From Dictyostelium discoideum (taxonomy: Eukaryota), in NCBI GenBank assembly GCA_000004695.1, contig CM000154.2, forward strand, positions 4,192,001-4,256,000: a stretch of 64,000 bases of DNA. The letters run 5' to 3'. The notes beneath the pieces were generated by a model, which saw nothing but the letters and a program-made list of their open reading frames with translations, was not told where the DNA came from and made no database searches. Shown one piece after another: positions 4,325 through 64,000 of the stretch. How positions within the stretch are numbered: the stretch's first letter is position 1; every line of letters starts with the position of its first letter. Position numbers and translations under genes: made by a program.

Positions 4325-5485
4325 TCTTATGGTTCAAGAAATGATGAATTTGATTTTATTACAAGTAATGAAGGTCAATACTATCATCTTACTTCTAGTA
4401 GTTGCGTTAAAACATTGAATGAGTACAGTTTTAACGCAATAATAGAGTCACTCAACAACAACTGTAACTTTATCATTTTAAAGAAAGGTGGCTATATCAA
4501 AACAAGTCATATCAGCGATCCAGTTGATCCTTCTCTTTTAAATAAACCACCTATTCCATCAAGTGATAATGAAGAAGAAGAAGAAGATGATGATGATGAT
4601 GAAGTAAATGAAGATGAATATGAAAATGGAAATGAGGATGAAGATGAAGATGAGGATGAAGATGAAGATGAAGATGAAGATGAAGATGAAGATGAAGATG
4701 AAGATGAAGATGAAGATGAAGATGAAGATGAAGATGAAGATGAAGATGAAGATGAAGATGAAGAATATGAAGATGAAGATGAAGATGAAGATATTATTGG
4801 AGATGACGCTGAGGTTGAAAAAGAAAACAAGAATGGATTTTCTCATTTAGAATCACTACAAATTACACCAATACCTCACGACAAAGATGAAGAACAACCA
4901 GAAAAACCTCAACAACAAGAGATACATCAACAACCAGAGAAACCTCAACAACCAGAGAAACCACAAGAACTACAATCAACTGAAACACCAGGACAAGAAG
5001 TATCAGTTGATTATAAAATCCTTTATGACAGAAAAGCTTTCAAAGAATTTTTATACGGTGGATTCGAAAAATTCACTGAAGATTTGAAACTGCAAATCCT
5101 TGATGCCGGTATCAATTGTTTTTCAGTTTTATTAAATTTAAAGAGTGAAGACTGGTCAAAGTTTTCATTCTTACAATTACCAAAGAGAAATCAATTGGTA
5201 AATTCTTATAAGAAAATTCATAATGAAGCCATCAAAAAAGAGTATCCTTTCGAATCTCCTTTTGATATAGATGACCAAAAAGCCTACGAACAATTCCTTA
5301 AAGATATCGTTAATGATGAAAAAACTATAATGGATTTGGTTGAAGCTGGTTTTGACTCATTTACATCTTTAATTCCATCTGATGATGGCGGTTGGGAAGA
5401 AGTGTCTTTAAATTTACAAGAGATCCTTAAACCTGCGACATGTTTCAACTTAATCAATCAATTAAAATTGGTTGGAAAAGCATAA
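4325..5485 (+). CDS. Terminal exon of the same gene. It holds an acidic (D/E)n repeat encoded by (GAAGAT)n, a PEKPQQ repeat and a globular C-terminal region.
   Basis: The frame continues from the acceptor at 4324 with no stop. The track ORF at 4415..5485 begins at a TTG, not an ATG. Confidence 0.6.
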   Translation, partial: SYGSRNDEFDFITSNEGQYYHLTSSSCVKTLNEYSFNAIIESLNNNCNFIILKKGGYIKTSHISDPVDPSLLNKPPIPSSDNEEEEEDDDDDEVNEDEYENGNEDEDEDEDEDEDEDEDEDEDEDEDEDEDEDEDEDEDEDEDEDEEYEDEDEDEDIIGDDAEVEKENKNGFSHLESLQITPIPHDKDEEQPEKPQQQEIHQQPEKPQQPEKPQELQSTETPGQEVSVDYKILYDRKAFKEFLYGGFEKFTEDLKLQILDAGINCFSVLLNLKSEDWSKFSFLQLPKRNQLVNSYKKIHNEAIKKEYPFESPFDIDDQKAYEQFLKDIVNDEKTIMDLVEAGFDSFTSLIPSDDGGWEEVSLNLQEILKPATCFNLINQLKLVGKA

Positions 5486-5744
5486 TGAAAAATAAAAAAA
5501 TAAAAAAATAAAAAAAATAAATATAAAAAAAAAAAATATTAAGATATAATAAAAAAAATAAAATAAAAAAAATAAATAAGAAAATAAATGTTAATAATTA
5601 TTAATAACATTTTTTTTTTTTAATATATCAATAAAAGTTGAAATAAAGAGAAAAGAAAGAGAATAAATAAGAACAAACAAGAACAACAAAGAACAATAAC
5701 AAGAACAATAACAAGTACAAAAAATAAAACAATTAAACAAAAAT

Positions 5745-5975
5745 AAAAGTCTATTTCCCAAAACATTTTAGCAATTATCTTTTTTGATTAAAAAAGAAAG
5801 ATCTTTCTTACAACAAAACCAATTATGGATTCATTTATTTTTTTTTTTTTCCTCTGGTGGTGGATTTATGGTTAAAAAGATTTCATTATAATTTGGACAT
5901 TTCATCTTGTTCATTTTCATTTCGTCTTCATTATCTTTCTTCTTTTAATTGCTTAATTGATGTTCATTTGAAATA
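5745..5975. repeat. Copy 1 of a duplicated intergenic segment of about 230 bp.
   Basis: About 85-90% identical to 6142-6385. A roughly 90-bp core (tttcccaaaacattttagc.attatcttttt.attaaaaaagaaagatctttcttacaacaaaaccaattatggattcatttatttt) is nearly identical. No conserved ORF. Confidence 0.7.
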
Positions 5976-6141
5976 ATCATTATTAATACAATTTGAAAAC
6001 TATTTTGAATAATTATAAAAAAAAAAATTAAATTCTTACAACTTTAAAAGGAATAGACATATTAATTTCATCAGACTAATTTTAACATATTAATTTCAGC
6101 CTTAAAACAGGTATATACATTAAAAAAACTTAAAATTTTAT

Positions 6142-6385
6142 TTCCCAAAACATTTTAGCGATTATCTTTTTAATTAAAAAAGAAAGATCTTTCTTACAAC
6201 AAAACCAATTATGGATTCATTTATTTTGATTTGTTTTTTTTTTTCTTTTCTTCTGGCAATGAATTTATATTTTTTCAAGAATTTATTATCATTTGGACAT
6301 TTCATCTTCTTCAATTTTCATTTTGTCTTCATAATATTTCTTCTTTTTTAATAGCTTAATTGATATTCATTTGAAATAATAATAT
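6142..6385. repeat. Copy 2 of the duplicated intergenic segment.
   Basis: Direct repeat of 5745-5975. The downstream segment 5990-6070 also reappears at 7700-7760 (acaatttgaaaa...aattaaattc.tacaa.ttttaaaggaatagat). Confidence 0.7.
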
Positions 6386-6520
6386 TTGGTTGGTTTATAT
6401 TTTTGACTGTAAAAAAAAAAATTTACCTTCGATTGAATTATTATTATAGTTGCTGCTTTTGTATTATTATTCAAGCATTTATTTTTACTATTTTCATTTT
6501 TTATGTTATTAATACAATTA

Positions 6521-6603
6521 GTATTACTATTACTATTACTATTACTATTACTATTACTATTACTATTACTATTACTATTACTATTACTATTACTATTACT
6601 ATT
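6521..6603. repeat. (ACTATT)n hexanucleotide microsatellite, about 14 units.
   Basis: Perfect tandem hexamer seen directly. Confidence 0.9.
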
Positions 6604-7031
6604 ATACCTCTTAAAAAGCCATTTGAGTTGTTGATAATAATGAGGAATCTCAATGGTAAAATGTTTATCATTTTTCTGGAACTAATTGCAACAAAGTTTG
6701 ATTCCAAATCTTTTATTAAAAATATTGCTTTTGTTTTCAAAGTGTGTGGTTTTTTTTTTCTTTCAATAATCCATCCATAAATTTTCATTCTTTTGAAATT
6801 GAAAAGTTTATGGATGGATTTTTGAATGAAAAAAAAAATCCCATACTATACTACCAAATTAAAATGAAATTTTGTGGTAATGAAAATTAAATATCATTCA
6901 AAAATGTTAATGCCAAAAAAAGCCTCAACAATAATAATATTAGATAATTAAATCCATATTAAAAATAAAAAAAAATCGAAGTAATAAAAAAAAAAAAACT
7001 AGATTATAAATCAAATCAAAAAGAGGATAAA

Positions 7032-7184
7032 ATGGATATCGATAATGAGGAGGAAGAAGGTGATACCGATTTTGATCATAAACAAAAAGTTGATACTAAA
7101 CAACAACATGATGAAAATAAAAAATATCAATGCCAGATTAGAAACAAGATCAATTGTAACAAAAATAAAAAATAAATAACATTT
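7032..7184 (+). CDS. Small acidic ORF of 50 aa (MDIDNEEEEGDTDFDHKQKVDTKQQHDENKKYQCQIRNKINCNKNKK). Possible small gene or isolated exon.
   Basis: ATG-initiated, with GC content above the surrounding desert, directly upstream of the 16-mer repeat array. No homology recognised. Confidence 0.2.
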
Positions 7185-7268
7185 AAGGAAGGCACAAGAA
7201 AAATCATTTTATTAAAATCCTAACTATTAAATGTACAATATGATATGTTTACTTCCAATTTGACAAAT

Positions 7269-7606
7269 AGTGTTGATAACTTTTTATGTCTCAAATTATT
7301 GATTTTACCGGCTACAGTGTTGATAACTTTTAACCACCAATAATATTTGGTGAATTGATTCTATAATTTTACCAATTTTTGAAAATACTTCTTGATAATT
7401 CCTACTTACATGTAAAACAATTAGTGTTGATAACTTTTCTTGAATTAAACTATAAGAGATGTGGATCCAATTGACAATTAGTGTTGATAACTTTTTTCGT
7501 CGTACACAAGAGAGTAACTCCTCACTAACAATTTGATAAAAAGTGTTAATAACTTTTTTTATCATGTATTATTACAATGATTAAGCTAATAGTGTTGATA
7601 ACTTTT
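7269..7606 (+). repeat. Array of six direct copies of the 16-mer AGTGTTGATAACTTTT (one copy has G to A) separated by unique spacers of 31-91 bp.
   Basis: Unit starts at 7269, 7316, 7423, 7480, 7542 and 7591, all in the same orientation. A partial copy (cttgataatt) lies at 7391. An ACCCATAA DUSE-like motif directly follows the last unit (7609-7616). Confidence 0.85.
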
Positions 7607-8074
7607 TAACCCATAATAATACTTTGAGAGTGGTGAATTTCCAAATAATTCCAGATACCATCTATTTTATTTTTTTTTTTTTTTTTTTTTTTTTATTAGC
7701 ACAATTTGAAAATGAATAATTAAAAAAAATAAATTAAATTCATACACATTTTAAAGGAATAGATTATAACTTTTGATTTTTATATGTAATAGCACACTTT
7801 TACATAAAAAAAAAAAAAAAAAAAAAAAAAACTTTCTTTTATACTCAGTCCAAAATCTTTAAAACCAAATTGTAAAATTTTATTTTTTCCAATTTTGGTA
7901 AATTAAAATATGAGATTTAATCCACAAATATATAAATGGTGATTGTTTTATCTTGATTCTTTTTAAAGTAATTTTTTCATTTAATCTAAAAGATTTTAAT
8001 TGAAAGTGAAAAATAGGGGTTTGCTGATTGATTAAAAAAAAAAAAAATAAAAAAAAAATAAAAAAAAAAATAAA

Positions 8075-8140
8075 AATAAAATAAAATAAAATAAAATAAA
8101 ATAAAATAAAATAAAATAAAATAAAATAAAATAAAATAAA
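8075..8140. repeat. (AAAAT)n microsatellite.
   Basis: Tandem pentamer of about 13 units. Confidence 0.9.
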
Positions 8141-8323
8141 AAAAAACAAAATTAAATTAAATTAAATTAAATAAAAATATTTAAGATCTTGGTCAACTTT
8201 TATTTTTTTGTTTAAATTATTTAATTTATTATTTTAATTTTTTTTATTTTTTTTATTTTTTTTTTATTTAAATATATGTTTTTTATTTTATTTATTTTTA
8301 TTTTATTTTTTTAATATTTAAAG

Positions 8324-9613
8324 TTAAAATAAAAAGTATAAAAATAGAGATACCATTATTAATAAGTATTTTGGTATATTCTTACAAGAGCTATTACCAT
8401 CACTATTCTTTTCGAGTAATTCATTTGAGCTTGAGTGATGAATAAAAGGTGGTGGAGGTGTTCCCCTTTTATGTAATGGTGTTGGTGATACGTTTTCTTC
8501 AGAATCCGAAGATGATGAGTCCATAATTGGCAATGGTGATGCTGATACTGATACTGATGTTGATGCTGATGCTGATTCTGATGCTGATTCTGATTCTGAT
8601 GCTGATGCCGATGGTGATGGTGATTCAGATTGAGAAGATTTACTCTCACTATCTTTTTTTTTATCTTCACTACTAGATTCATTAAACTCACTAGATGCTT
8701 GAATAACCTCTTCAGATGAAGATGGTTTTTCTGTAGAAATTGACATTGGTCTAGAGGATATTGGTGTTTGAGTTGGAGTTGGAGTTTGAGTTTGAGTTGG
8801 TGTTTGGCTTGGTGTTTGAGTCGGGGTTGGTGTTTGACTTGGTGTTGGAGTTGGTGTTTGACTTGGTGTTTGACTTGGTGTTTGACTTGGTGTTTGACTT
8901 GGTGTTTGACTTGGTGTTGGTGTTTGAGTTGGTGTTTGAGTTGGTTTTGGTGTTTGACTTGGTGTTGGTGTTTGACTTGGTGTTTGAGTTTGGGTTGGTG
9001 TTAGTGTTTGAGTTTGAGTTGGTGTTGTTGTTTGAGTTTGAGTTGGTGTTGGTGTTTGAGTTGGTGTTGGTGTTTGGCTTGGTGTTTGACTTTCCTCTAA
9101 TGATGATGATGGTGATGGTGATGGTGATGGTGATGGTGATGGTGATGGTGATGGTGATGGTGATGGTGATGGTGATGGTGATGGTGATGGTGATGGTGAT
9201 GGTGATGGTGATGGTGATGGTGATGGTGATGGTGATGGTGATGGTGATGAGTTTGGATCTAATTCACCACATTTTACTTTAATAAAAGAGTTTAATTCTA
9301 ACCATTCACCATTGCAAGTTAAAGCTTTAGTCATTTCGAAAGCATTTGATCTTGTTGAGCATTGATTATTTTTATAAACATCGAAAATATAACCATTGGT
9401 TAATCTTTTTTTAACGGAAAATGAACGTGTTAATTGATCTTGTTGATCGACATTCTCATCTTTACATATTAAATAACTACATCTATTAGCAAGTGTTACA
9501 TTCTTTATAATACCACCATCTTTACAATTTAAACAAACTGTAAAAATTGTAGTATCAATTGAATATATACCAACTAATACATTAAAAAACAATACTACAA
9601 ATAATAATATTTT

Positions 9614-9616
<3 letters not shown>
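8324..9616 (-). CDS. Secreted or GPI-anchored mucin-like glycoprotein. It has an N-terminal signal peptide, a Cys-containing domain, (SP)24 and (TQTP/SQTP)n repeats, and a C-terminal hydrophobic tail.
   Basis: 430-aa ATG ORF. The signal peptide is [19 protein letters not shown]. The (SP)n tract is encoded by a perfect (GATGGT)23 array on the + strand at 9107-9246. The hydrophobic C-terminus is [15 protein letters not shown]. Confidence 0.65.
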
Positions 9617-10926: not shown

Positions 10927-12042
10927 ACTAGATCAGAATTTGATAAAGAATGTAAAATATGTACTAGACCATACAATGTATATAGATGGAAACCAGGATC
11001 AAGTTCAAGATATAAGAGAACAGAGATTTGTAAAACATGTTCACAAGTTAAGAATGTTTGTCAAGCTTGTATACATGATTTAGAATTTGGATTACCAGTT
11101 CAAGTTAGAGATGCAGCATTAGCAGCAAATCAATTTGAAAACTCTTATGTTACAGATAAAGGTATTGAATACCAAGCAACTGAGAATCAACGTTTAATTG
11201 ATAACGGTTTAATATCATATGATAATTTTCAACCAAGTGATATCGTTACAAAATTAGCAAAAACAATACCAAAATCAAATTTTAATAATAGTAGTAATAA
11301 TAATAATAATAATAATAATAAAAATGATTCAAATGCACCAAAAATATGCTCATTCTTTCAAAAAGGTAATTGTAATCGTGGTGATGAATGTCCATATAGA
11401 CATGATTTAAATAGCAGCAATACAGAAATAAAAGATGGTGTAAATAAAATACAACAACAAAAACCACCAAAGAAACCAATCGATCAAAGTATAACAACAT
11501 TATTTTTAGGTAATTTAGAGTTTGATAAGATCACTGAAGATCATATTAAAAATAATTTATTTGTATTTGGTAATATTAAAAAGGTTAAATTAATTGAACA
11601 TCAAAAATGTGCTTTTGTAACATTTGAAACTCGTGAATCTGCTGAATCCGCAATAGATTCTTTATTTAATAATTTTAAAATTGATAATTGTGAAATTAAA
11701 TTAAATTGGAGTAAATCAAATAAACCACCACCAATTCAAAATACAAATAATAACAATAATAATAATAATTCATATCATCCTTATCAACATCCAAATAATA
11801 AAATAAATAATAATAATAATACAAATATAGAAAATACAGAAGAAAAAGAATTATATTCAGCAGCACCAACAGATAAACCAAAACCAATTACAATTATGAA
11901 ACCAATGGGAATTAAATCTTTCCCAACTTTTAAAATTAATCCAACTCCAACTTCTTCCTCCTCATCTTCATCAACAACTACAAATAAACCATACTACTCC
12001 TCAATGGATCCAAGTAATTATGGTAGTAAATATAGTTCATAA
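10927..12042 (+). CDS. rbm22: rbm22 exon 2 (371 codons). It holds ECKICTRPYNVYRWKPG...VCQACIHDLEFGLPVQVRD, the C3H1 zinc finger (CSFFQKGNCNRGDECPYRHD) and an RRM (TLFLGNL...CAFVTFETRESAESA).
   Basis: Acceptor AATAG at 10925-10926. The frame is stop-free to TAA at 12040-12042. This exon is absent from the ORF track because it has no in-frame start codon for 320 codons. Strong similarity to human RBM22. Confidence 0.85.
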   Translation, partial: TRSEFDKECKICTRPYNVYRWKPGSSSRYKRTEICKTCSQVKNVCQACIHDLEFGLPVQVRDAALAANQFENSYVTDKGIEYQATENQRLIDNGLISYDNFQPSDIVTKLAKTIPKSNFNNSSNNNNNNNNKNDSNAPKICSFFQKGNCNRGDECPYRHDLNSSNTEIKDGVNKIQQQKPPKKPIDQSITTLFLGNLEFDKITEDHIKNNLFVFGNIKKVKLIEHQKCAFVTFETRESAESAIDSLFNNFKIDNCEIKLNWSKSNKPPPIQNTNNNNNNNNSYHPYQHPNNKINNNNNTNIENTEEKELYSAAPTDKPKPITIMKPMGIKSFPTFKINPTPTSSSSSSSTTTNKPYYSSMDPSNYGSKYSS

Positions 12043-40731: not shown

Positions 40732-42069
40732 TTATTGTTGTTGAGCATGTAAAGTTTTATGAGCAATTGTAACAGCTTTAACAGATAAATAACCTTGAAT
40801 TGCATATTCAGATAAATCACGACCAAAACCGGATTGTTTGAAACCACCAAATGGAATTTGAGATTTTAAGATATTGAAACCATTTACCCAAACTGAACCA
40901 CTCTTTAATTTATTTGAAACATTTAATGCTAAACTAATATCTTTAGTCCAAACACCAGCTGCTAAACCATAGGTTGTGTCATTTGCTCTTTTAATTACTT
41001 CATCAACAGTTTTGAATGGTAAAATTACAACAACAGGACCAAAGATTTCTTCTTTACAAATTGTCATATCATCAGTGACATTGGTGAAAATAGTTGGCTG
41101 AATGAAATAACCAGCACCATCGGCATGATGATTATGAACTTCACCACCTAAATGACAAGTTGCACCTTCCTCTTTACCCTTTTGAATGTAACCTAAAACA
41201 CGATCATGTTGTTGTTTACTAACCAATGGACCTAAATGAGTTTCACTATCATATGGATCACCAACTTTTAATTGTTTAATCTTCTCTGTGAATATTGTCA
41301 AGAAAGCATCAAGAATACTCTCATGAACAAAGAATCTTGAAGCGGCACAGCATAGCTGCATACTATTTGCAAAAACGTAATTTTTTGCAGCATTGGCCAC
41401 ATATTCAATGTCGCAGTCACCAAAGATGATATTTGGAGATTTACCACCAAGTTCTAATGTCACCGGTTTCAAATTACTCTTTGCAGCAGCCTCCATAATT
41501 AATCTACCAACTCTAGTTGAACCGGTGAATGAAATCTTGTCAACATCCATATGATGTGATAATGCATCACCAACTACATCACCAACACCATTTACAATAT
41601 TAATTACACCAGGTGGGAAACCAGCCTCCTTAACCAATTCACAAAAGTATAAAGCAGTCAATGGGGTGAACTCAGATGGTTTAGCAACTATTGTACAACC
41701 TGCAGCTAAGGATGGTCCCAATTTCCAAGACAATAGTAACAATGGGAAATTCCAAGCAACGATTAATCCAACTACACCAATTGGTTCATGTTTGGTCATT
41801 GCAGTGAATTCACTACTAATTGGGATGGTTTTACCTTGAATTTTATCAGCCCAGCCACCGAAATAACGTAAAGCTCTAGCAGCTTCAGTAATATCAAAAC
41901 CACTTGATGCTGTCAATGGTTTACCATTATCCAATGTTTCTAAATCTGATAAATGCTCTCTATGTTGATCAACTAAATCTGCCAATTTCAATATTAATTT
42001 ACCTCTATCTTCTGCTGTCATTTTACCCCATGGTCCATTGTCTAATGCATTTCTTGCTGCTTTAACTGC
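40732..42069 (-). CDS. Aldehyde dehydrogenase paralog B, exon 2 (AVKAARNALDNGPWGKMTAEDRG ... to the end). It has no second intron.
   Basis: Track ORF at 40732..42021 extended upstream to the acceptor TTTATAG ending at 42070. Motifs are ELGGKSP and QLCCAASR. Confidence 0.85.
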   Translation of the reverse strand, partial: AVKAARNALDNGPWGKMTAEDRGKLILKLADLVDQHREHLSDLETLDNGKPLTASSGFDITEAARALRYFGGWADKIQGKTIPISSEFTAMTKHEPIGVVGLIVAWNFPLLLLSWKLGPSLAAGCTIVAKPSEFTPLTALYFCELVKEAGFPPGVINIVNGVGDVVGDALSHHMDVDKISFTGSTRVGRLIMEAAAKSNLKPVTLELGGKSPNIIFGDCDIEYVANAAKNYVFANSMQLCCAASRFFVHESILDAFLTIFTEKIKQLKVGDPYDSETHLGPLVSKQQHDRVLGYIQKGKEEGATCHLGGEVHNHHADGAGYFIQPTIFTNVTDDMTICKEEIFGPVVVILPFKTVDEVIKRANDTTYGLAAGVWTKDISLALNVSNKLKSGSVWVNGFNILKSQIPFGGFKQSGFGRDLSEYAIQGYLSVKAVTIAHKTLHAQQQ

Positions 42070-43460: not shown

Positions 43461-44795
43461 GCAGTAAAAGCAGCAAGAAATGCATTTGAAAATGGACCAT
43501 GGGGTACAACAATGTCATCAGAAGAAAGAGGTAGAATTATATTGAAATTGGCAAATTTAATTGAAAACCATAAAGAGAAACTTGCACAATTGGAAACATT
43601 GGATAATGGTAAATCAATTGTTTCAGCAAGGGAAGATATTGATTTTTGTGTTAGAGTAATTCGTTATTTCGGTGGTTGGGCTGATAAAATTCAAGGCAAA
43701 ACCATCCCAATTAGTAGTGAATTCACATCGATTACTAAACACGAGGCAATTGGTGTAGTTGCTTTAATTGTTGCTTGGAATTATCCAGTGATGTTGTTAT
43801 GTTGGAAATTGGGACCAGCTTTAGCTGCAGGTTGTACAATCGTTGCTAAATCATCTGAATTCACCCCATTGACTGCATTATATCTTTGTGAATTATTTAA
43901 AGAAGCTGGTTTCCCACCTGGTGTTTTCAATTTAGTCAATGGGTTTGGTGCAACTGTTGGTAATGCATTATCATATCATATGGATATCGATAAGATTTCA
44001 TTCACTGGTTCAACTATAACTGGTAGAAAAATTATGGAAGGTGCAGCAAAGAGTAACTTAAAACCAGTGACATTAGAACTTGGTGGTAAGTCTCCAAATA
44101 TCTTCTTTTCAGACTGCCAAATTGATCATTGTGTTGAGGCTGCTAAGGATTACGTATTCTCAAATAACAGTCAAAACTGTTGCTTCTCATCAAGATTCTT
44201 TGTTCATGAGAGTATCCATGACGCTTTCTTGGCATTATTCACAGAGAAGATTAAACAATTAAAAGTTGGTGATCCATATGAAGAATCCAACAATTTAGGC
44301 CCATTGGTTAGTAAACAACAACATGATCGTGTATTGGGTTACATTGAAAAAGGTAAGAGTGAAGGTGCAACTTGCCATTTAGGTGGTGTTAAACATCAAA
44401 TTGATGGTAAAGGTTATTTCGTTCAACCAACTATTTTCACCAATGTCACTGATGATATGACAATTTGTAAAGAAGAAATCTTTGGTCCTGTTGTCGTAAT
44501 TTTAAAATTCAAAACTGTTGATGAAGTAATTAAAAGAGCAAATAACACAACCTATGGTTTAGCAGCTGGTATTTGGACTAAAGATATCAGTTTAGCATTA
44601 AATGTTTCAAATAAATTAAAAGCTGGTTCAGTTTGGGTAAATAATTATGATAACTGTTTACCACAAGTACCATTCGGTGGTTTCAAACAATCTGGTATTG
44701 GTCGTGATTTATCTGAATATGCAATTCAAAGCTATTTATCTGTTAAAGCTGTTACAATTGCTCATAAAACTTTACATGCTCACCAACAACAATAA
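43461..44795 (+). CDS. ALDH-C exon 2 (AVKAARNAFENGPWGTTMSSEERG ... to the end).
   Basis: Acceptor TTTTTAATAG at 43451-43460. The frame is continuous with the track ORF at 43512..44795. Motifs are ELGGKSP and QNCCFSSR. Confidence 0.85.
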   Translation, partial: AVKAARNAFENGPWGTTMSSEERGRIILKLANLIENHKEKLAQLETLDNGKSIVSAREDIDFCVRVIRYFGGWADKIQGKTIPISSEFTSITKHEAIGVVALIVAWNYPVMLLCWKLGPALAAGCTIVAKSSEFTPLTALYLCELFKEAGFPPGVFNLVNGFGATVGNALSYHMDIDKISFTGSTITGRKIMEGAAKSNLKPVTLELGGKSPNIFFSDCQIDHCVEAAKDYVFSNNSQNCCFSSRFFVHESIHDAFLALFTEKIKQLKVGDPYEESNNLGPLVSKQQHDRVLGYIEKGKSEGATCHLGGVKHQIDGKGYFVQPTIFTNVTDDMTICKEEIFGPVVVILKFKTVDEVIKRANNTTYGLAAGIWTKDISLALNVSNKLKAGSVWVNNYDNCLPQVPFGGFKQSGIGRDLSEYAIQSYLSVKAVTIAHKTLHAHQQQ

Positions 44796-57031: not shown

Positions 57032-57208
<177 letters not shown>

Positions 57209-60150: not shown

Positions 60151-60481
60151 TTATGATTTTAACCTCTTTCTACCTCCACTAGAAGAAGAGGAAGAGGAGG
60201 AGGAAGAAGAAGATAATGGTGAGGAAGAAGGAGAATTGTTACCAGGGTCATCAACATTTTCACTCTTATTATTATTATTATTCTTTTTGTTATTATTTAA
60301 AATTGTAGGTGATGAGGAAGAGGATGGGGTTGAAGGTGATTCTTCATAGTCAAATAATAATCTTTTGCCAACCATTTTCTTTTCAGTATTATTATTATTA
60401 TTGCTATTATTATTGCTATTATTATTGTTATTATTATTGTTATTATTGTTATTATTGTTATTATTGTCGTTGCTATTATTA

Positions 60482-60540
<59 letters not shown>

Positions 60541-61064
60541 ACTTGAAGGAGTTGTTGGTGGTGGAGGTACCATTTCATCATTTTTCTTTTTATTTAAACA
60601 TTGATTGATTTGAAATAATTCTTTACTTGGACTCTTTGCGACAATATAAGTGTATGAACTAGAGATTGGAGTATGTTGTTTCATAGGTGATATTGTAACC
60701 ATACTATTTACAGAGAAACTACTATTATAATTAACACCTTTTTGTGGTGATAATGGTATTGATGAAGAGAATTTATTTGGTGTATTATTATTGCTATTAT
60801 ATGGATTATTATTTTGATTTTTGGTTGGTGTGTGAAATAATGGGTTCCATTTCTTAGGTGAATTTTGATTTAGTAAAGGTGGTGGTAAATTTTGTAGTGG
60901 TTGTTGATATTGATGTTGTTGCTGTTGTTGATATTTACTAAATACTTCATGAATGTAAGGATCCATTTTTGTTAAAAATATTTTATTATAAAATAAAATT
61001 ATATCACCCTTTACTGGATTATTATTATTATTATTATTTTCATTATTATTATTATTATTATTAA

Positions 61065-61131
<67 letters not shown>

Positions 61132-61884
61132 TTCATCATTACCTATATAAACTTCTTTATAAACTTTAGCAGAGATACAAGATTTATCAATGATTGCTTT
61201 AAAGGTAATATTTTTAGAGTTAACTTTACATATTGCATAGATTGAACAAATTAAAAGTACATCTATTTCTCTATTTTTAAATAATAATGTTTCATCGATT
61301 AAGATCTTTATCATGACTTGATAGATTTGAACCACATAATCTGATGATAATCCCATTGCATGAATTAACTTTCTACATTTTGCAATGATCAATGTTGATA
61401 CTTTTTTAATGAAATTTTGAATAAATGGATTCTTTTTAGTTGGTGTATTTGGTATATTTGTATTAATTAATTGTTGATTCCTGAAAGGATTATTATTTTG
61501 ATTTTTAGTTGGTGTTGAAAATACTTGAGTTGGACGTAAATGTGTTGTTATGGCAGCACCAACACCATTACTATTAAAAATGTTTTGAAAATCATGACTT
61601 TTAATTGTTGAAAAAACGGTTGAATTATTTGACCAAACATATTTCTCTAAAATTTTCTCTTCAATTTGACTAAAATGTTGAGCCAACAGTTTAGGGAGAT
61701 CAGCATCAACTTTTAATACTAAATCAATTAATCTTAGATAAGAGAATGGATGAAGTTTGAAAACATTTATAAAATGAGGGAAATATAATCCTTCCATCTT
61801 ATAAACATATGCTATAATTTCAAAGCTATTTGACAATAATGATTTATGAAAATCTTCATGATTTAATAATACATTAATATTTGA
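60151..61884 (-). CDS. rblA: rblA (retinoblastoma-like), exon 2. It covers the end of pocket A, the spacer, pocket B (DVLLICSIYAICKVNSKNITFKAIIDK...DIILFYNKIFLTKMDPYI) and the C-terminal tail.
   Basis: Pocket B matches Rb (LDQIMMCSMYGICKV...FKIIVTAYKDL...IIVFYNSVFMQRLK). Acceptor CAAAAG ending at 61885. The frame is stop-free to 60151. The track M is a TTG. Confidence 0.75.
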
Positions 61885-61977
61885 CTTTTGTATAAATATA
61901 TATATATATAAAATAGAAATAGAAATATATTAATATTAATAATTTTTTTATTTTTATTTTTTTTAAATTTTACTTAC

Positions 61978-62476
61978 ACTTGTATTTTGTTCAAATTTAA
62001 TTAATTTTTCAAGTAAACAATAATATAATTGTATTGCCATATTCTTTCTTCTTTGTTTTACTTCTTGTTGTTGTTGTTGTTGTTGTTGATGATCGTCAAT
62101 ACCACCAATAGAGAATAAACTATCAGTATTATTTGTTAATGATGAAACTCTTTCAATCATTTTATCAACTTCTGATGTTTGTTGTGGTTGATCCGCAGAT
62201 TTTAAAATATTAATTAAATTTAAAGAGGGATTTGGATCTCTATAGTTTTGAATTTCAACTTTTAACCAAGATTCTAATGTTAGAGTTAAAGATATTGGTG
62301 TTTGTGGTATAACACTACCTAAATTACCGGCACTTAAGGATTTTGATGGTGTACCGTATATATTCTTTCTTAAATTACCACCACCACCACCACCACTACT
62401 ACTACTACTACCATATCTTGATGGTGTCGTTGGTGTTGAAGGTGGCAATAATGATGAATATTGATAATTTAAATGA

Positions 62477-62520
<44 letters not shown>

Positions 62521-63104
62521 ATAATTATTATTATGATTATTGTTATTATTATTATTATTTTGGTTATTATTATTATTATTTAAAACATATATATCATGAT
62601 CAAATGAATAAAATAAACGTTCATCTATGTCACCATTTGCATAATAATAAAGTTCATATGATTTGTTTAAAGAATTATAGTTATCTTTAATTATGCTAGA
62701 ATTATTAAAGATTGATTTAATACCATCACTATTATTATTATTGTTATTATTATTGTTATTATTATTGTTATTATTATCAAATAATTTTAAAATGGAATTA
62801 TTAATTAATAAATTAGAATAAGTTGAAAATATATTTTGATTAACATTTGAAAGATCGTCAAGATTACATGGAATTGATTTAGCTAAATATAATAGTATAT
62901 CTCCAGTTGCAGTATCAATGATTTGAACGCCTTGTGGTATCTTTTTCAATTCACTTATCGATGTATTAACATAAATGAAATTTATAATACATAATAGTAA
63001 ATGTAAAGATTGAACGAAATCTGGACTGTCCTTGGTAAACAATTTATTCTTACAGAAAAGGAAAATTAACCAGCCAATTGATAATAAATAATCTTCATTT
63101 GTTC

Positions 63105-63158
<54 letters not shown>

Positions 63159-64000
63159 TGTTATTATTATAGTTATGTTGTTGTGTTGTTTTTAATATAT
63201 AATTTTCAGTTGGATGAAATAGAGTGAAAAAGATTTGTTCATATTTTCTATAAAGATTATTTAATGTATTAAAAGATTGCTCCAATTGTCTACCTTGTTC
63301 TTCGAATGCATTACCTAATCTAAGGTTACTAATGAACGATCTAAGGGTATCAAAGAATTGTGATAATTTAATCTCACCTTCAAAGTGTTTCAAAAGTTGT
63401 GATAAAAACACTGAATTTTGTAAGAATTGACTATCACCACCACTTTCATTAATGCATGATCTTATTGATACTAATAATTCATTATTATTACTACTATTTT
63501 TATTAATACTATTATTATTTTCATTTAATAATGTATCTTCTTCTTCTTCTTCTTCTGTATCAGTGGTGGTTTCTTCTTCTTCTTCATTACTATCATTATT
63601 TTTATTTTTGCTATTATTAGTTTTTCTTATCTTTCTTCCTTTTATTTTACTATTATTATCTGGTTGAAAAGATGAAGAAGAGGGTTGATTTAAATTATAT
63701 AATAAAGAACTAAATTTCTTATTACCACATATAAATAATGAGCATGCTACAATTTGTTTTTGAAATTGTTCAGATGTATCAACCGATACTAATTGCATAT
63801 TCTCTAATAAACACCATGCCAACTTGATTGTATCTTGATCTACATTCAATGCTGATGATGTCCTATCTAATTTTGATTTTAATTCCTCTAATTGAATTTG
63901 GGTATATCTACCTTTTAATTCTGCTGCTGCCACTAACTCATCCAAAAGATTAATTTTATTATTTATAATATCATTATTATTATTTTCATTATTTTCATTA
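61978..64000 (-). CDS. rblA: rblA exon 1 (RbN and the pocket A cyclin folds), 5'-partial. The frame is still open at the window edge.
   Basis: The donor GTAAGT at 61977-61972 overlaps the track ORF's stop. The N-terminal DTIKLAWCLLENM...ACSLFICG aligns with Rb (RERAWLTWEKV...GICIFIAA). The track M at 63945 is a TTG, and the frame continues upstream (NENNENNNNDIINNKINLL) to nt 64000. Confidence 0.7.

What the first reader, a model, noticed from the sequence alone, without database searches (positions are those of the whole stretch)
7269..7616. Array of six identical 16-bp direct repeats with unique spacers (CRISPR-like layout in a eukaryotic intergenic region)
What is seen. AGTGTTGATAACTTTT occurs six times in the same orientation, five exact and one G>A, at 7269, 7316, 7423, 7480, 7542 and 7591. 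The spacers are unrelated and 31-91 bp long. Several units are preceded by CAATT. A DUSE-like ACCCATAA follows the last unit.

Why it is odd. Exact 16-mers repeated six times cannot be chance in this genome.

Possible explanations:
- subterminal transposase-binding repeats at the end of a DNA transposon or MITE;
- a clustered cis-regulatory array (the unit contains a GATA-type core, TGATAA);
- a cluster of very small RNA genes that share one end.

The array sits inside a larger composite repeat region (5745-7760).
Basis: seen in the sequence. Interest (0 to 1): 0.65.

Follow-up and report, generated by a model that had tools for sequence, protein, structure and literature searches.

The report
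Six-copy 16-bp binding-site array, Dictyostelium
A non-coding stretch of the Dictyostelium discoideum genome carries six same-direction copies of one 16-base word separated by unrelated DNA; it looks like a landing pad for a DNA-binding protein, is missing from two sister species, and its function is untested.

Summary
AGTGTTGATAACTTTT occurs six times on the + strand at the stated positions, five exact and one G>A. None of 100 shuffles reached six matches.

The window is D. discoideum chromosomal DNA. The array lies in a 2.8 kb gap between two convergent genes. In D. citrinum and D. dimigraforme the same two genes are 166 and 205 bp apart, with no trace of the array or its surroundings.

The 16-mers have sharp edges: 99% column identity inside against about 58% in the flanks, which is background. 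The spacers are mutually unrelated. The core TTGAYAA occurs nine times on the + strand and never on the - strand.

It is not a CRISPR array, a tandem repeat, coding sequence, a tRNA or a known RNA family. It shows no unusual RNA structure. No terminal inverted repeats, inverted motif copies, transposase remnants or second copy were found.

Best reading (confidence about 0.4): a same-orientation cluster of sites for one sequence-specific DNA-binding protein, probably a regulatory module next to TATA/oligo-dT promoter-like signals. A transposon-derived protein-binding region is the main rival. Genome-wide copy number, transcription and binding could not be tested.

The parts
7269..7284 (+). Repeat R1, AGTGTTGATAACTTTT (exact). 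Long form, preceded by CCAATTTGACAAAT.
7316..7331 (+). Repeat R2 (exact). Followed by AACCACCAATAATATTTGGTGAATT, which is related to the tail after R6.
7423..7438 (+). Repeat R3 (exact). Preceded by AAAACAATT.
7480..7495 (+). Repeat R4 (exact). Long form, preceded by CCAATTGACAATT.
7542..7557 (+). Repeat R5, the one variant (G7>A: AGTGTTAATAACTTTT). Long form, preceded by CAATTTGATAAAA.
7591..7606 (+). Repeat R6 (exact). Followed by TAACCCATAATAATACTTTGAGAGTGGTGAATTT.
7260..7266 (+). Extra core heptamer TTGACAA, 13 nt upstream of the core inside R1 (a double site).
7392..7398 (+). Extra core heptamer TTGATAA inside the long spacer. It sits in a decayed copy of the 16-mer (10 of 16 positions match).
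   Evidence: sequence
7471..7477 (+). Extra core heptamer TTGACAA, 13 nt upstream of the core inside R4 (a double site).
7533..7539 (+). Extra core heptamer TTGATAA, 13 nt upstream of the variant core inside R5 (a double site).
7609..7616 (+). DUSE-like 8-mer ACCCATAA. The position about 60 nt downstream falls in a T-run and no ncRNA signature follows. It is probably not a working DUSE.
7663..7694 (+). TATTTTA followed by a run of 25 T. This looks like a canonical Dictyostelium core promoter on the + strand and begins 57 bp after R6 ends. Activity is inferred, not shown.
   Evidence: promoter architecture from own knowledge
6520..7700 (.). Segment X1 (1181 bp), which carries the array and the hairpin. 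It is present in copy 2 of the local A-B duplication and absent from copy 1. It is flanked by the direct repeat ACAATT (6514-6519 and 7701-7706).
5486..8323 (.). The whole 2838-bp gap between the stop codons of two convergent genes. The syntenic gap is 166 bp in D. citrinum and 205 bp in D. dimigraforme, with no similarity to this block.
6745..6843 (-). Near-perfect hairpin of about 100 nt, 430 bp from the array. On the - strand it lies downstream of TATAAT (7008-7003) and T13 (6998-6986).

Best explanation
The array is a same-orientation cluster of binding sites for one sequence-specific DNA-binding protein. It has six full 16-bp sites, AGTGTTGATAACTTTT. The core TTGAYAA is present ten times if the R5 variant is counted, and three times as double sites 13 bp apart. 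It sits in non-coding DNA that D. discoideum has and two sister species lack.

The most likely role is a transcriptional control module, an upstream activating or silencing array, for a neighbouring non-coding transcription unit. On the + strand the last site is followed 57 bp later by TATTTTA plus T25, the classic Dictyostelium core-promoter layout. On the - strand the array lies 260-630 bp upstream of TATAAT plus T13, which precedes a 100-nt hairpin.

Shown: the repeats, their sharp boundaries, their single orientation, the absence of coding, tandem-repeat and RNA-family signals, and the absence of the block in the syntenic gap of two relatives. Inferred: that a protein binds, which protein it is (a GATA-type zinc finger or a TTGA-reading factor are candidates), and that the nearby promoter-like signals are active.
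For: - Enrichment is far beyond chance: 6 matches against 0.33 expected, and 0 of 100 shuffles reach 6.
- It is the only dispersed non-coding 12-mer family in the 64 kb window.
- The conserved block has sharp edges. Identity is 0.99 over 16 columns, against 0.56-0.61 in the flanks and 0.56 for background.
- The spacers are unrelated and TRF finds no tandem array. The word itself is therefore what is kept.
- The core heptamer TTGAYAA occurs 9 times on the + strand and 0 times on the - strand within 342 bp. Four of these lie outside the 16-mers, where about 0.2 would be expected from the window-wide density of 82 per 128 kb of strand.
- The repeat falls in different reading frames because the spacings are 47, 107, 57, 62 and 49. 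The block's ORFs have no Pfam family and no homologue among 5.8 billion proteins.
- Nothing points to an RNA gene. There is no tRNA and no Rfam family, and the folding z-scores are +0.6 and +0.2.
- TGATAA fits the WGATAR consensus, and GtaC ChIP-seq peaks in D. discoideum are enriched for a GATA-like motif (PMC4506546).
- TATA plus oligo-dT signals lie next to the array on both strands.
Against: - No binding, expression or chromatin data could be consulted.
- A 16-bp letter-perfect site is longer than a typical transcription-factor core of 6-10 bp.
- No target gene with a recognisable product exists. The only gene model nearby, a 110-aa ab initio call at 6289-6788 on the - strand, has no homologue.
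- The block is absent from both relatives, so there is no cross-species conservation to argue for host function.
- Perfect identity of five copies could also mean recent copying rather than selection.
Confidence: 0.4

Rival explanations
1. The array is the protein-binding region of a non-autonomous mobile element, such as subterminal transposase sites or an internal insulator- or enhancer-like array. The element inserted here in the D. discoideum lineage. The 16-mers are perfect because the copy is young or was selected within the element family, not at this locus.
For: - The whole 2.8 kb block is missing from the syntenic gap in D. citrinum and D. dimigraforme, although both flanking genes are conserved to their C-termini.
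- Segment X1 (6520-7700), which holds the array, interrupts copy 2 of a local duplication. It is flanked by a 6-bp direct repeat, ACAATT.
- A 108-bp palindrome lies in the same segment.
- The segment has no coding capacity.
Against: - There are no terminal inverted repeats above the shuffle background at the ends of X1, of the block or of the array.
- No inverted copy of the motif exists anywhere in 64 kb.
- No transposase or reverse-transcriptase remnant was found.
- There is no other copy in the window or in 21 kb of each sister locus.
- The 6-bp flank repeat fits a microhomology deletion in copy 1 equally well.
- A gain in D. discoideum and a loss in a citrinum+dimigraforme ancestor are equally parsimonious.
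Confidence: 0.25
2. The array works at the RNA level. A long non-coding transcript runs through it, and the 16-nt word is a repeated docking site for an RNA-binding protein or a small RNA. On this reading the array is a repeat-motif lncRNA or a sponge.
For: - A canonical TATAAAAG plus T26 promoter-like signal lies on the - strand at 7843-7806, upstream of the array.
- The hairpin lies downstream on the same strand.
- Single orientation of all sites is required for an RNA motif and is observed.
Against: - There is no transcription evidence.
- AATAAA followed by an A-run at about 7695-7669 on the - strand would probably end such a transcript before the array.
- No listed D. discoideum miRNA contains or complements the word.
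- Complementarity to the neighbouring hairpin is only 7 nt, judged by reading the sequences.
- There is no structure signal.
Confidence: 0.12
3. The array is a cluster of very small RNA genes that share a 3' end. Each spacer plus 16-mer would be one unit ending in a T-run.
For: Every copy ends in T4-T7, which resembles a Pol III terminator. A DUSE-like 8-mer is nearby.
Against: - No promoter element recurs upstream of the units.
- There is only one DUSE-like site. It lies after the last unit, and the position 60 nt downstream is a T-run.
- No tRNA-like or Rfam match was found.
- Folding energy is no better than shuffles.
Confidence: 0.05
4. The array is a relic of bacterial DNA, a DnaA-box cluster from a replication origin, acquired by horizontal transfer.
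For: - The core TGTTGATAA, read on the other strand, is TTATCAACA. That is one mismatch from the E. coli DnaA box TTATCCACA (own knowledge).
- The exact 18-mer occurs in more than 120 bacterial-looking metagenome contigs. Some of these lie inside clusters of TGTKGATAA boxes.
Against: - The bacterial clusters have mixed orientation and variable flanks, whereas here all copies are direct with 16-bp identity.
- The two-repeat pattern and the long-form unit are absent from 185,579 prokaryotic genomes, from viral contigs and from metagenomes.
- There are no bacterial gene remnants.
- Composition, T-runs and A-runs are typical Dictyostelium.
- With many known motifs to compare against, a 9-mer resemblance is weak evidence.
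Confidence: 0.03
5. The array has no function. It is a by-product of old local duplications, with short-tract gene conversion keeping the word uniform.
For: The region is rich in local duplications. One decayed copy (10 of 16 positions) lies in the long spacer at 7388-7403.
Against: - Conversion tracts limited to exactly 16 bp in six places, with background-level flanks, would be unusual.
- The orientation bias of the additional heptamers argues for a constraint.
Confidence: 0.15

Closest known systems
Homotypic clusters of transcription-factor sites, such as the yeast GAL1-10 UAS with four 17-bp Gal4 sites (own knowledge)
   Same: Several copies of one long site (16-17 bp) lie within a few hundred bp, separated by unrelated spacers of irregular length and placed next to a core promoter.
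   Different: Gal4 sites are palindromic and orientation-free. Here the word is asymmetric and all copies point the same way. No factor, target gene or activity is known.
Su(Hw) site array of the Drosophila gypsy retrotransposon, with 12 sites in about 350 bp (own knowledge)
   Same: A dense array of one protein's sites with AT-rich unrelated spacers, of similar overall size, carried by DNA that is an insertion relative to related genomes.
   Different: gypsy is a recognisable LTR element with coding capacity and many copies. Here no element boundaries, coding remnants or further copies were found.
Subterminal transposase-binding repeats of cut-and-paste transposons such as Ac/Ds, En/Spm and P; in Dictyostelium, Tdd-4/5, DDT and thug
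   Same: A short motif is repeated with unrelated spacers near what may be the end of an inserted segment.
   Different: Those elements carry terminal inverted repeats and motif copies in inverted orientation at the other end. Tdd-4/5 have 260-297-bp TIRs and 5-bp target duplications (PMC2836005). None of these features is present here.
CRISPR arrays
   Same: The layout is the same: identical direct repeats alternating with unique spacers.
   Different: The repeat is 16 bp rather than 23-55, and spacer lengths of 31-91 bp are not uniform. The host is a eukaryote. The called neighbouring genes have orthologues in other dictyostelids and none has a cas-type Pfam hit. No CRISPR repeat family hits the array.
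GATA-factor target regions in D. discoideum (GtaC ChIP-seq, PMC4506546)
   Same: Seven of the ten core sites contain TGATAA, which fits WGATAR. GtaC-bound regions are enriched for a GATA-like motif.
   Different: Two cores are TGACAA and one is TAATAA, neither of which is GATA. Conservation extends over 16 bp, far beyond a GATA core. Binding at this locus is unknown.

Membership tests
CRISPR array | Direct repeats of about 23-55 bp with spacers of near-constant length | tested here: not met
   The repeat is 16 bp and the spacers are 31, 91, 41, 46 and 33 bp.
CRISPR array | Prokaryotic or viral host, usually with cas genes nearby; the repeat matches a CRISPR-DR family | tested here: not met
   The window is D. 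discoideum (100% identity to an AX4 protein). The called neighbouring genes have orthologues in other dictyostelids, and none of the genes called in the 21 kb locus has a cas-type Pfam hit. No Rfam CRISPR-DR hit overlaps 7269-7616.
Cut-and-paste DNA transposon or MITE | Terminal inverted repeats at the element ends | tested here: not met
   The best inverted matches at the ends of X1, of the block and of the array are homopolymer runs. Their scores lie within the shuffle range.
Cut-and-paste DNA transposon or MITE | Target-site duplication flanking the element | tested here: inconclusive
   ACAATT flanks X1 at 6514-6519 and 7701-7706. A 6-bp AT-rich repeat fits a microhomology deletion in the other copy equally well.
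Cut-and-paste DNA transposon or MITE | Subterminal motif also present in inverted orientation at the other end | tested here: not met
   No - strand match with up to 2 mismatches exists in 64 kb. None with up to 5 mismatches in 7151-7760 is convincing.
Cut-and-paste DNA transposon or MITE | Multiple copies in the genome | not testable with these tools
   No D. discoideum whole-genome search is available. There is no second copy in the 64 kb window or in the sister-species loci.
Cut-and-paste DNA transposon or MITE | Transposase gene or its remnants (autonomous copies) | tested here: not met
   The ten largest ORFs of the block have no Pfam hit below E = 0.1. They have no homologue among 5.8 billion proteins.
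Tandem repeat or minisatellite | Head-to-tail copies whose whole units are homologous | tested here: not met
   TRF reports nothing over 7200-7660 at a minimum score of 30. Spacer pairs are at shuffle level.
DUSE-driven ncRNA gene (Class I RNA, snRNA) | DUSE about 60 nt upstream of the RNA start or of a TGTG box, followed by an RNA with the family's conserved ends and motif | tested here: not met
   One DUSE-like 8-mer lies at 7609-7616. The position 60 nt downstream is the T25 run and no AAATGTG follows on that strand. No Rfam match was found. The criteria are taken from PMC7919456.
Pol III small RNA or tRNA-like genes | Internal A/B boxes or a tRNA-like fold; a stable structure | tested here: not met
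   ARAGORN finds 0 genes in the window. Folding z-scores are +0.62 and +0.18.
GATA-type cis-regulatory cluster | Clustered WGATAR cores | tested here: met
   TGATAA is present in seven of the ten core sites. Two are TGACAA and one is TAATAA.
GATA-type cis-regulatory cluster | Occupancy by a GATA factor and an effect on transcription | not testable with these tools
   No ChIP-seq, ATAC-seq or RNA-seq tracks are available here. ChIP-seq data for GtaC exist (PMC4506546).
Bacterial DnaA-box cluster (oriC) | Several 9-mers close to TTATCCACA, usually in both orientations, in a bacterial genome | tested here: not met
   The 9-mer resemblance is met, with one mismatch (own knowledge). Orientation is uniform and the host is a eukaryote. 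The array patterns are absent from 185,579 prokaryotic genomes.

The most novel reading that the evidence does not exclude
The array may be the control region, or the RNA-level docking array, of a species-restricted non-coding RNA locus. The neighbouring 100-nt hairpin would be its processed product. That would make it a lineage-specific regulatory module in D. discoideum built around a dedicated long-site (16-bp) DNA- or RNA-binding factor. No such factor has been described for this motif.
Probability: 0.12. Interest if true: 0.6.

Novelty: new member of a known kind. Interest (0 to 1): 0.33.

Why it matters
If a protein binds these sites, the array gives a ready-made, highly specific bait of six identical 16-bp sites. 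It could be used to purify a Dictyostelium DNA-binding factor whose long recognition site is not among those found in the literature searches made here.

The locus would also be a clean example of regulatory or mobile DNA present in D. discoideum and absent in its nearest sequenced relatives.

If the array turns out to be part of a catalogued transposon, it is ordinary. Its value is then limited to marking an insertion that is absent from two sister species.

Tried and rejected
- **Coding repeat.** Rejected. The spacings are not multiples of 3. The 86-aa ORF on the - strand reads the word in three frames. No homologues were found.
- **Exact-protein look-ups of the block's ORFs**. Nothing was on record. 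This is uninformative, because look-ups also missed the 430-aa gene that is on record.
- **Higher-order repeat of three double units.** BLAST and an alignment suggested it. The permutation test shows that only short extensions of some repeats are shared, not the spacers. The idea was downgraded.
- **Retroposition of X1.** Rejected. The homopolymer run is at the wrong end for either strand.
- **Copy 1 as a spliced retrocopy of copy 2.** Rejected. There are no GT...AG boundaries at the junctions.
- **Known miRNA at the hairpin, or a small RNA matching the word.** Not found in two D. discoideum miRNA papers with their supplements, nor for the hairpin in the wider paper library.
- **Literature search for the motif.** Only CRISPR sgRNA-scaffold noise came back.
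- **Plasmid origin.** No hit in PLSDB, which holds bacterial plasmids only. Dictyostelium nuclear plasmids could not be searched.
- **Array pattern scans** of metagenome, viral and prokaryotic collections gave no hit. Single 18-mer hits are bacterial and unrelated.
- **Outgroup for polarity.** The P. violaceum locus has lost synteny.
- **dutA lncRNA idea.** It could not be tested because no sequence is held.

Full report
**Observation**

The word AGTGTTGATAACTTTT is present six times on the + strand, at 7269, 7316, 7423, 7480 and 7591 (exact) and at 7542 (G7>A). Allowing two mismatches finds no other copy on either strand of the 64 kb window. Dinucleotide-preserving shuffles give 0.33 matches on average and never reach six.

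The spacers are 31, 91, 41, 46 and 33 bp. A scan for dispersed 12-mers shows that this is the only such family in non-coding DNA of the window. The other families lie in coding repeats.

**Where it is**

The window is Dictyostelium discoideum. An RBM22-like exon at 10927-12039 is 100% identical to the AX4 protein. The window also carries rblA. A second D. discoideum assembly (GCA_054883475.1) is 99.9% identical over 19.6 kb. Its array is identical, and the only differences in the region are homopolymer lengths.

The array lies in a 2838-bp gap (5486-8323) between two convergent genes. One is a gene for a protein of about 5,800 residues that ends at 5485 on the + strand. The other is a 430-aa Pro/Ser/Thr-rich gene with a hydrophobic N-terminus at 8324-9616 on the - strand.

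**Comparison with relatives**

In D. citrinum and D. dimigraforme the gene order is the same. Both flanking genes align to their C-termini. The gap there is only 166 and 205 bp. Nothing in 21 kb of either locus resembles the D. discoideum block or the 16-mer.

The two relatives are closer to each other (85% in RBM22) than to D. discoideum (80-81%). The next outgroup available, P. violaceum, has lost synteny. A gain in D. discoideum and a loss in the other lineage are therefore formally equally parsimonious. A short gap like those in the relatives is the usual state for a compact genome (own knowledge).

**Anatomy of the array**

The conserved unit is exactly the 16-mer. Column majority is 0.99 over the 16 positions. 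It falls at once to 0.61 in the 5' flank and 0.56 in the 3' flank, against a background of 0.56.

A BLAST hit and a three-way alignment suggested three diverged double units. Permutation tests do not bear this out. Only R1, R4 and R5 share a roughly 14-nt 5' extension, CCAATT(T)GAYAAWW. Only R2 and R6 share a 3' tail. All other flank pairs are at shuffle level. TRF finds no tandem repeat over the array.

The core heptamer TTGAYAA occurs nine times on the + strand and never on the - strand between 7260 and 7601. Four of these lie outside the 16-mers, where the window-wide density predicts about 0.2. Three of them sit 13 nt upstream of a 16-mer core and form double sites. One decayed copy of the word (10 of 16 positions) lies in the long spacer.

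**What it is not**

- It is not coding. The spacings put the word in different frames. The block's ORFs have no Pfam family and no homologue among 5.8 billion proteins.
- It is not a tRNA or any Rfam family.
- It is not a structured RNA. Folding z-scores are +0.62 and +0.18 on the two strands.
- It is not a CRISPR array. The repeat is too short, the spacers are irregular and the host is a eukaryote.
- The DUSE-like ACCCATAA at 7609-7616 is real and rare, one of two in the window. DUSE acts about 60 nt upstream of an RNA start or of a TGTG box (PMC7919456). That position here is a T25 run, and no ncRNA signature follows.

**Transposon hallmarks**

The array lies in a segment X1 (6520-7700). X1 is present in copy 2 of a local duplication and absent from copy 1 (A: 5732-5980 against 6119-6383; B: 5980-6057 against 7693-7763). 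It is flanked by ACAATT direct repeats. This is compatible with an insertion, and equally with a microhomology deletion in copy 1.

No terminal inverted repeats exceed the shuffle background at the ends of X1, of the block or of the array. There is no inverted copy of the motif. There are no transposase remnants and no second copy in the window. Genome-wide copy number, the decisive figure, could not be obtained, because no tool here searches a eukaryotic genome.

**Origin outside Dictyostelium**

Two-repeat and long-form patterns are absent from metagenome, viral and 185,579 prokaryotic genome collections. PLSDB gives no hit.

The bare 18-mer does occur in more than 120 bacterial-looking contigs. 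In several it lies within clusters of TGTKGATAA boxes in mixed orientation. Its core is one mismatch from the DnaA box (own knowledge). I regard this as a chance resemblance. Orientation, extended identity, composition and the absence of bacterial genes all argue against horizontal transfer.

**Neighbouring signals**

- On the + strand, TATTTTA plus T25 (7663-7694) begins 57 bp after R6 ends.
- On the - strand, TATAAAAG plus T26 (7843-7806) lies upstream of the array.
- Also on the - strand, TATAAT plus T13 (7008-6986) lies between the array and a near-perfect 100-nt hairpin at 6745-6843. The hairpin has a folding energy of -44.2 kcal/mol and a z-score of -7.85, and gives sub-threshold miRNA-precursor hits.

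These resemble the TATA/oligo-dT core promoters of Dictyostelium (own knowledge). T-rich stretches before pri-miRNA start sites have been reported (PMC6161686). The hairpin is not among the published miRNAs I could search.

**Interpretation**

Three features together are the signature of a word read by a sequence-specific macromolecule: a sharply bounded, letter-perfect 16-mer; unrelated spacers; and strict co-orientation of ten core sites.

I rank the readings as follows:
- A DNA-binding-protein site cluster acting as a transcriptional control module: about 0.40.
- The protein-binding region of a mobile element: about 0.25.
- A non-functional product of duplication and conversion: about 0.15.
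- An RNA-level docking array: about 0.12.
- Small RNA genes: about 0.05.
- A bacterial relic: about 0.03.

Candidate readers of the site are GATA-type zinc fingers, since TGATAA fits WGATAR and GtaC peaks carry GATA-like motifs (PMC4506546), or TTGA-reading factors (own knowledge). Neither was tested.

**Verdict**

This is a real and statistically solid motif array, specific to D. discoideum among the three species compared. It belongs to a known general kind, the homotypic site cluster. Its function is unproven. Interest is moderate to low until copy number, transcription and binding have been checked.

Noticed in passing
window 6745-6843 (either strand; - strand favoured): A near-perfect hairpin of about 100 nt (-44.2 kcal/mol, z -7.85) with sub-threshold Rfam miRNA-precursor matches. 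On the - strand it lies about 130-160 nt downstream of TATAAT plus T13/T9 runs (7008-6967). It overlaps the start of an ab initio 110-aa gene call (6289-6788, - strand) that has no homologues. It was not found in the D. discoideum miRNA papers I could search.
   Followed up: partly
window 5732-6057 versus 6119-6383 plus 7693-7763: A local duplication of a unit of about 330 bp (A-B, 82-83% identity). The second copy is split by two extra segments, 6383-6505 and 6520-7700. The larger one is flanked by ACAATT direct repeats.
   Followed up: partly
window 7670-7694 and 7806-7831: A T25 run and an A26 run in inverted orientation bracket about 110 bp that includes the B' repeat. Each run is preceded, on its own strand, by a TATA-like box, so the two look like convergent core promoters. 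The A-run is 3 nt shorter in the other D. discoideum assembly.
   Followed up: no
loci L010, L077, L115, L006, L098 (metagenome contigs): The exact 18-mer TAGTGTTGATAACTTTTT recurs in bacterial contigs. It often lies inside clusters of TGTKGATAA (DnaA-box-like) 9-mers in both orientations. One contig family has it about 50-70 nt from contig ends. These hits are unrelated to Dictyostelium.
   Followed up: partly
window 57116-57123 (+): The only other WCCCAYAA (DUSE-like) match in the window. The motif is five times rarer than dinucleotide shuffles predict. It could mark a real ncRNA promoter.
   Followed up: no
window 6513-6604: A (TACTAT)15 microsatellite (96% matches) at the left edge of segment X1. 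On the - strand it reads as an Asn/Ser run inside the 110-aa gene model.
   Followed up: no
window 40732-42021 (-) and 43512-44795 (+); 60151-63945 (-): Two divergently oriented aldehyde dehydrogenase paralogues, and the retinoblastoma-like gene (RB_A and RB_B domains). I take the latter to be rblA, on chromosome 5 (own knowledge, unchecked).
   Followed up: no
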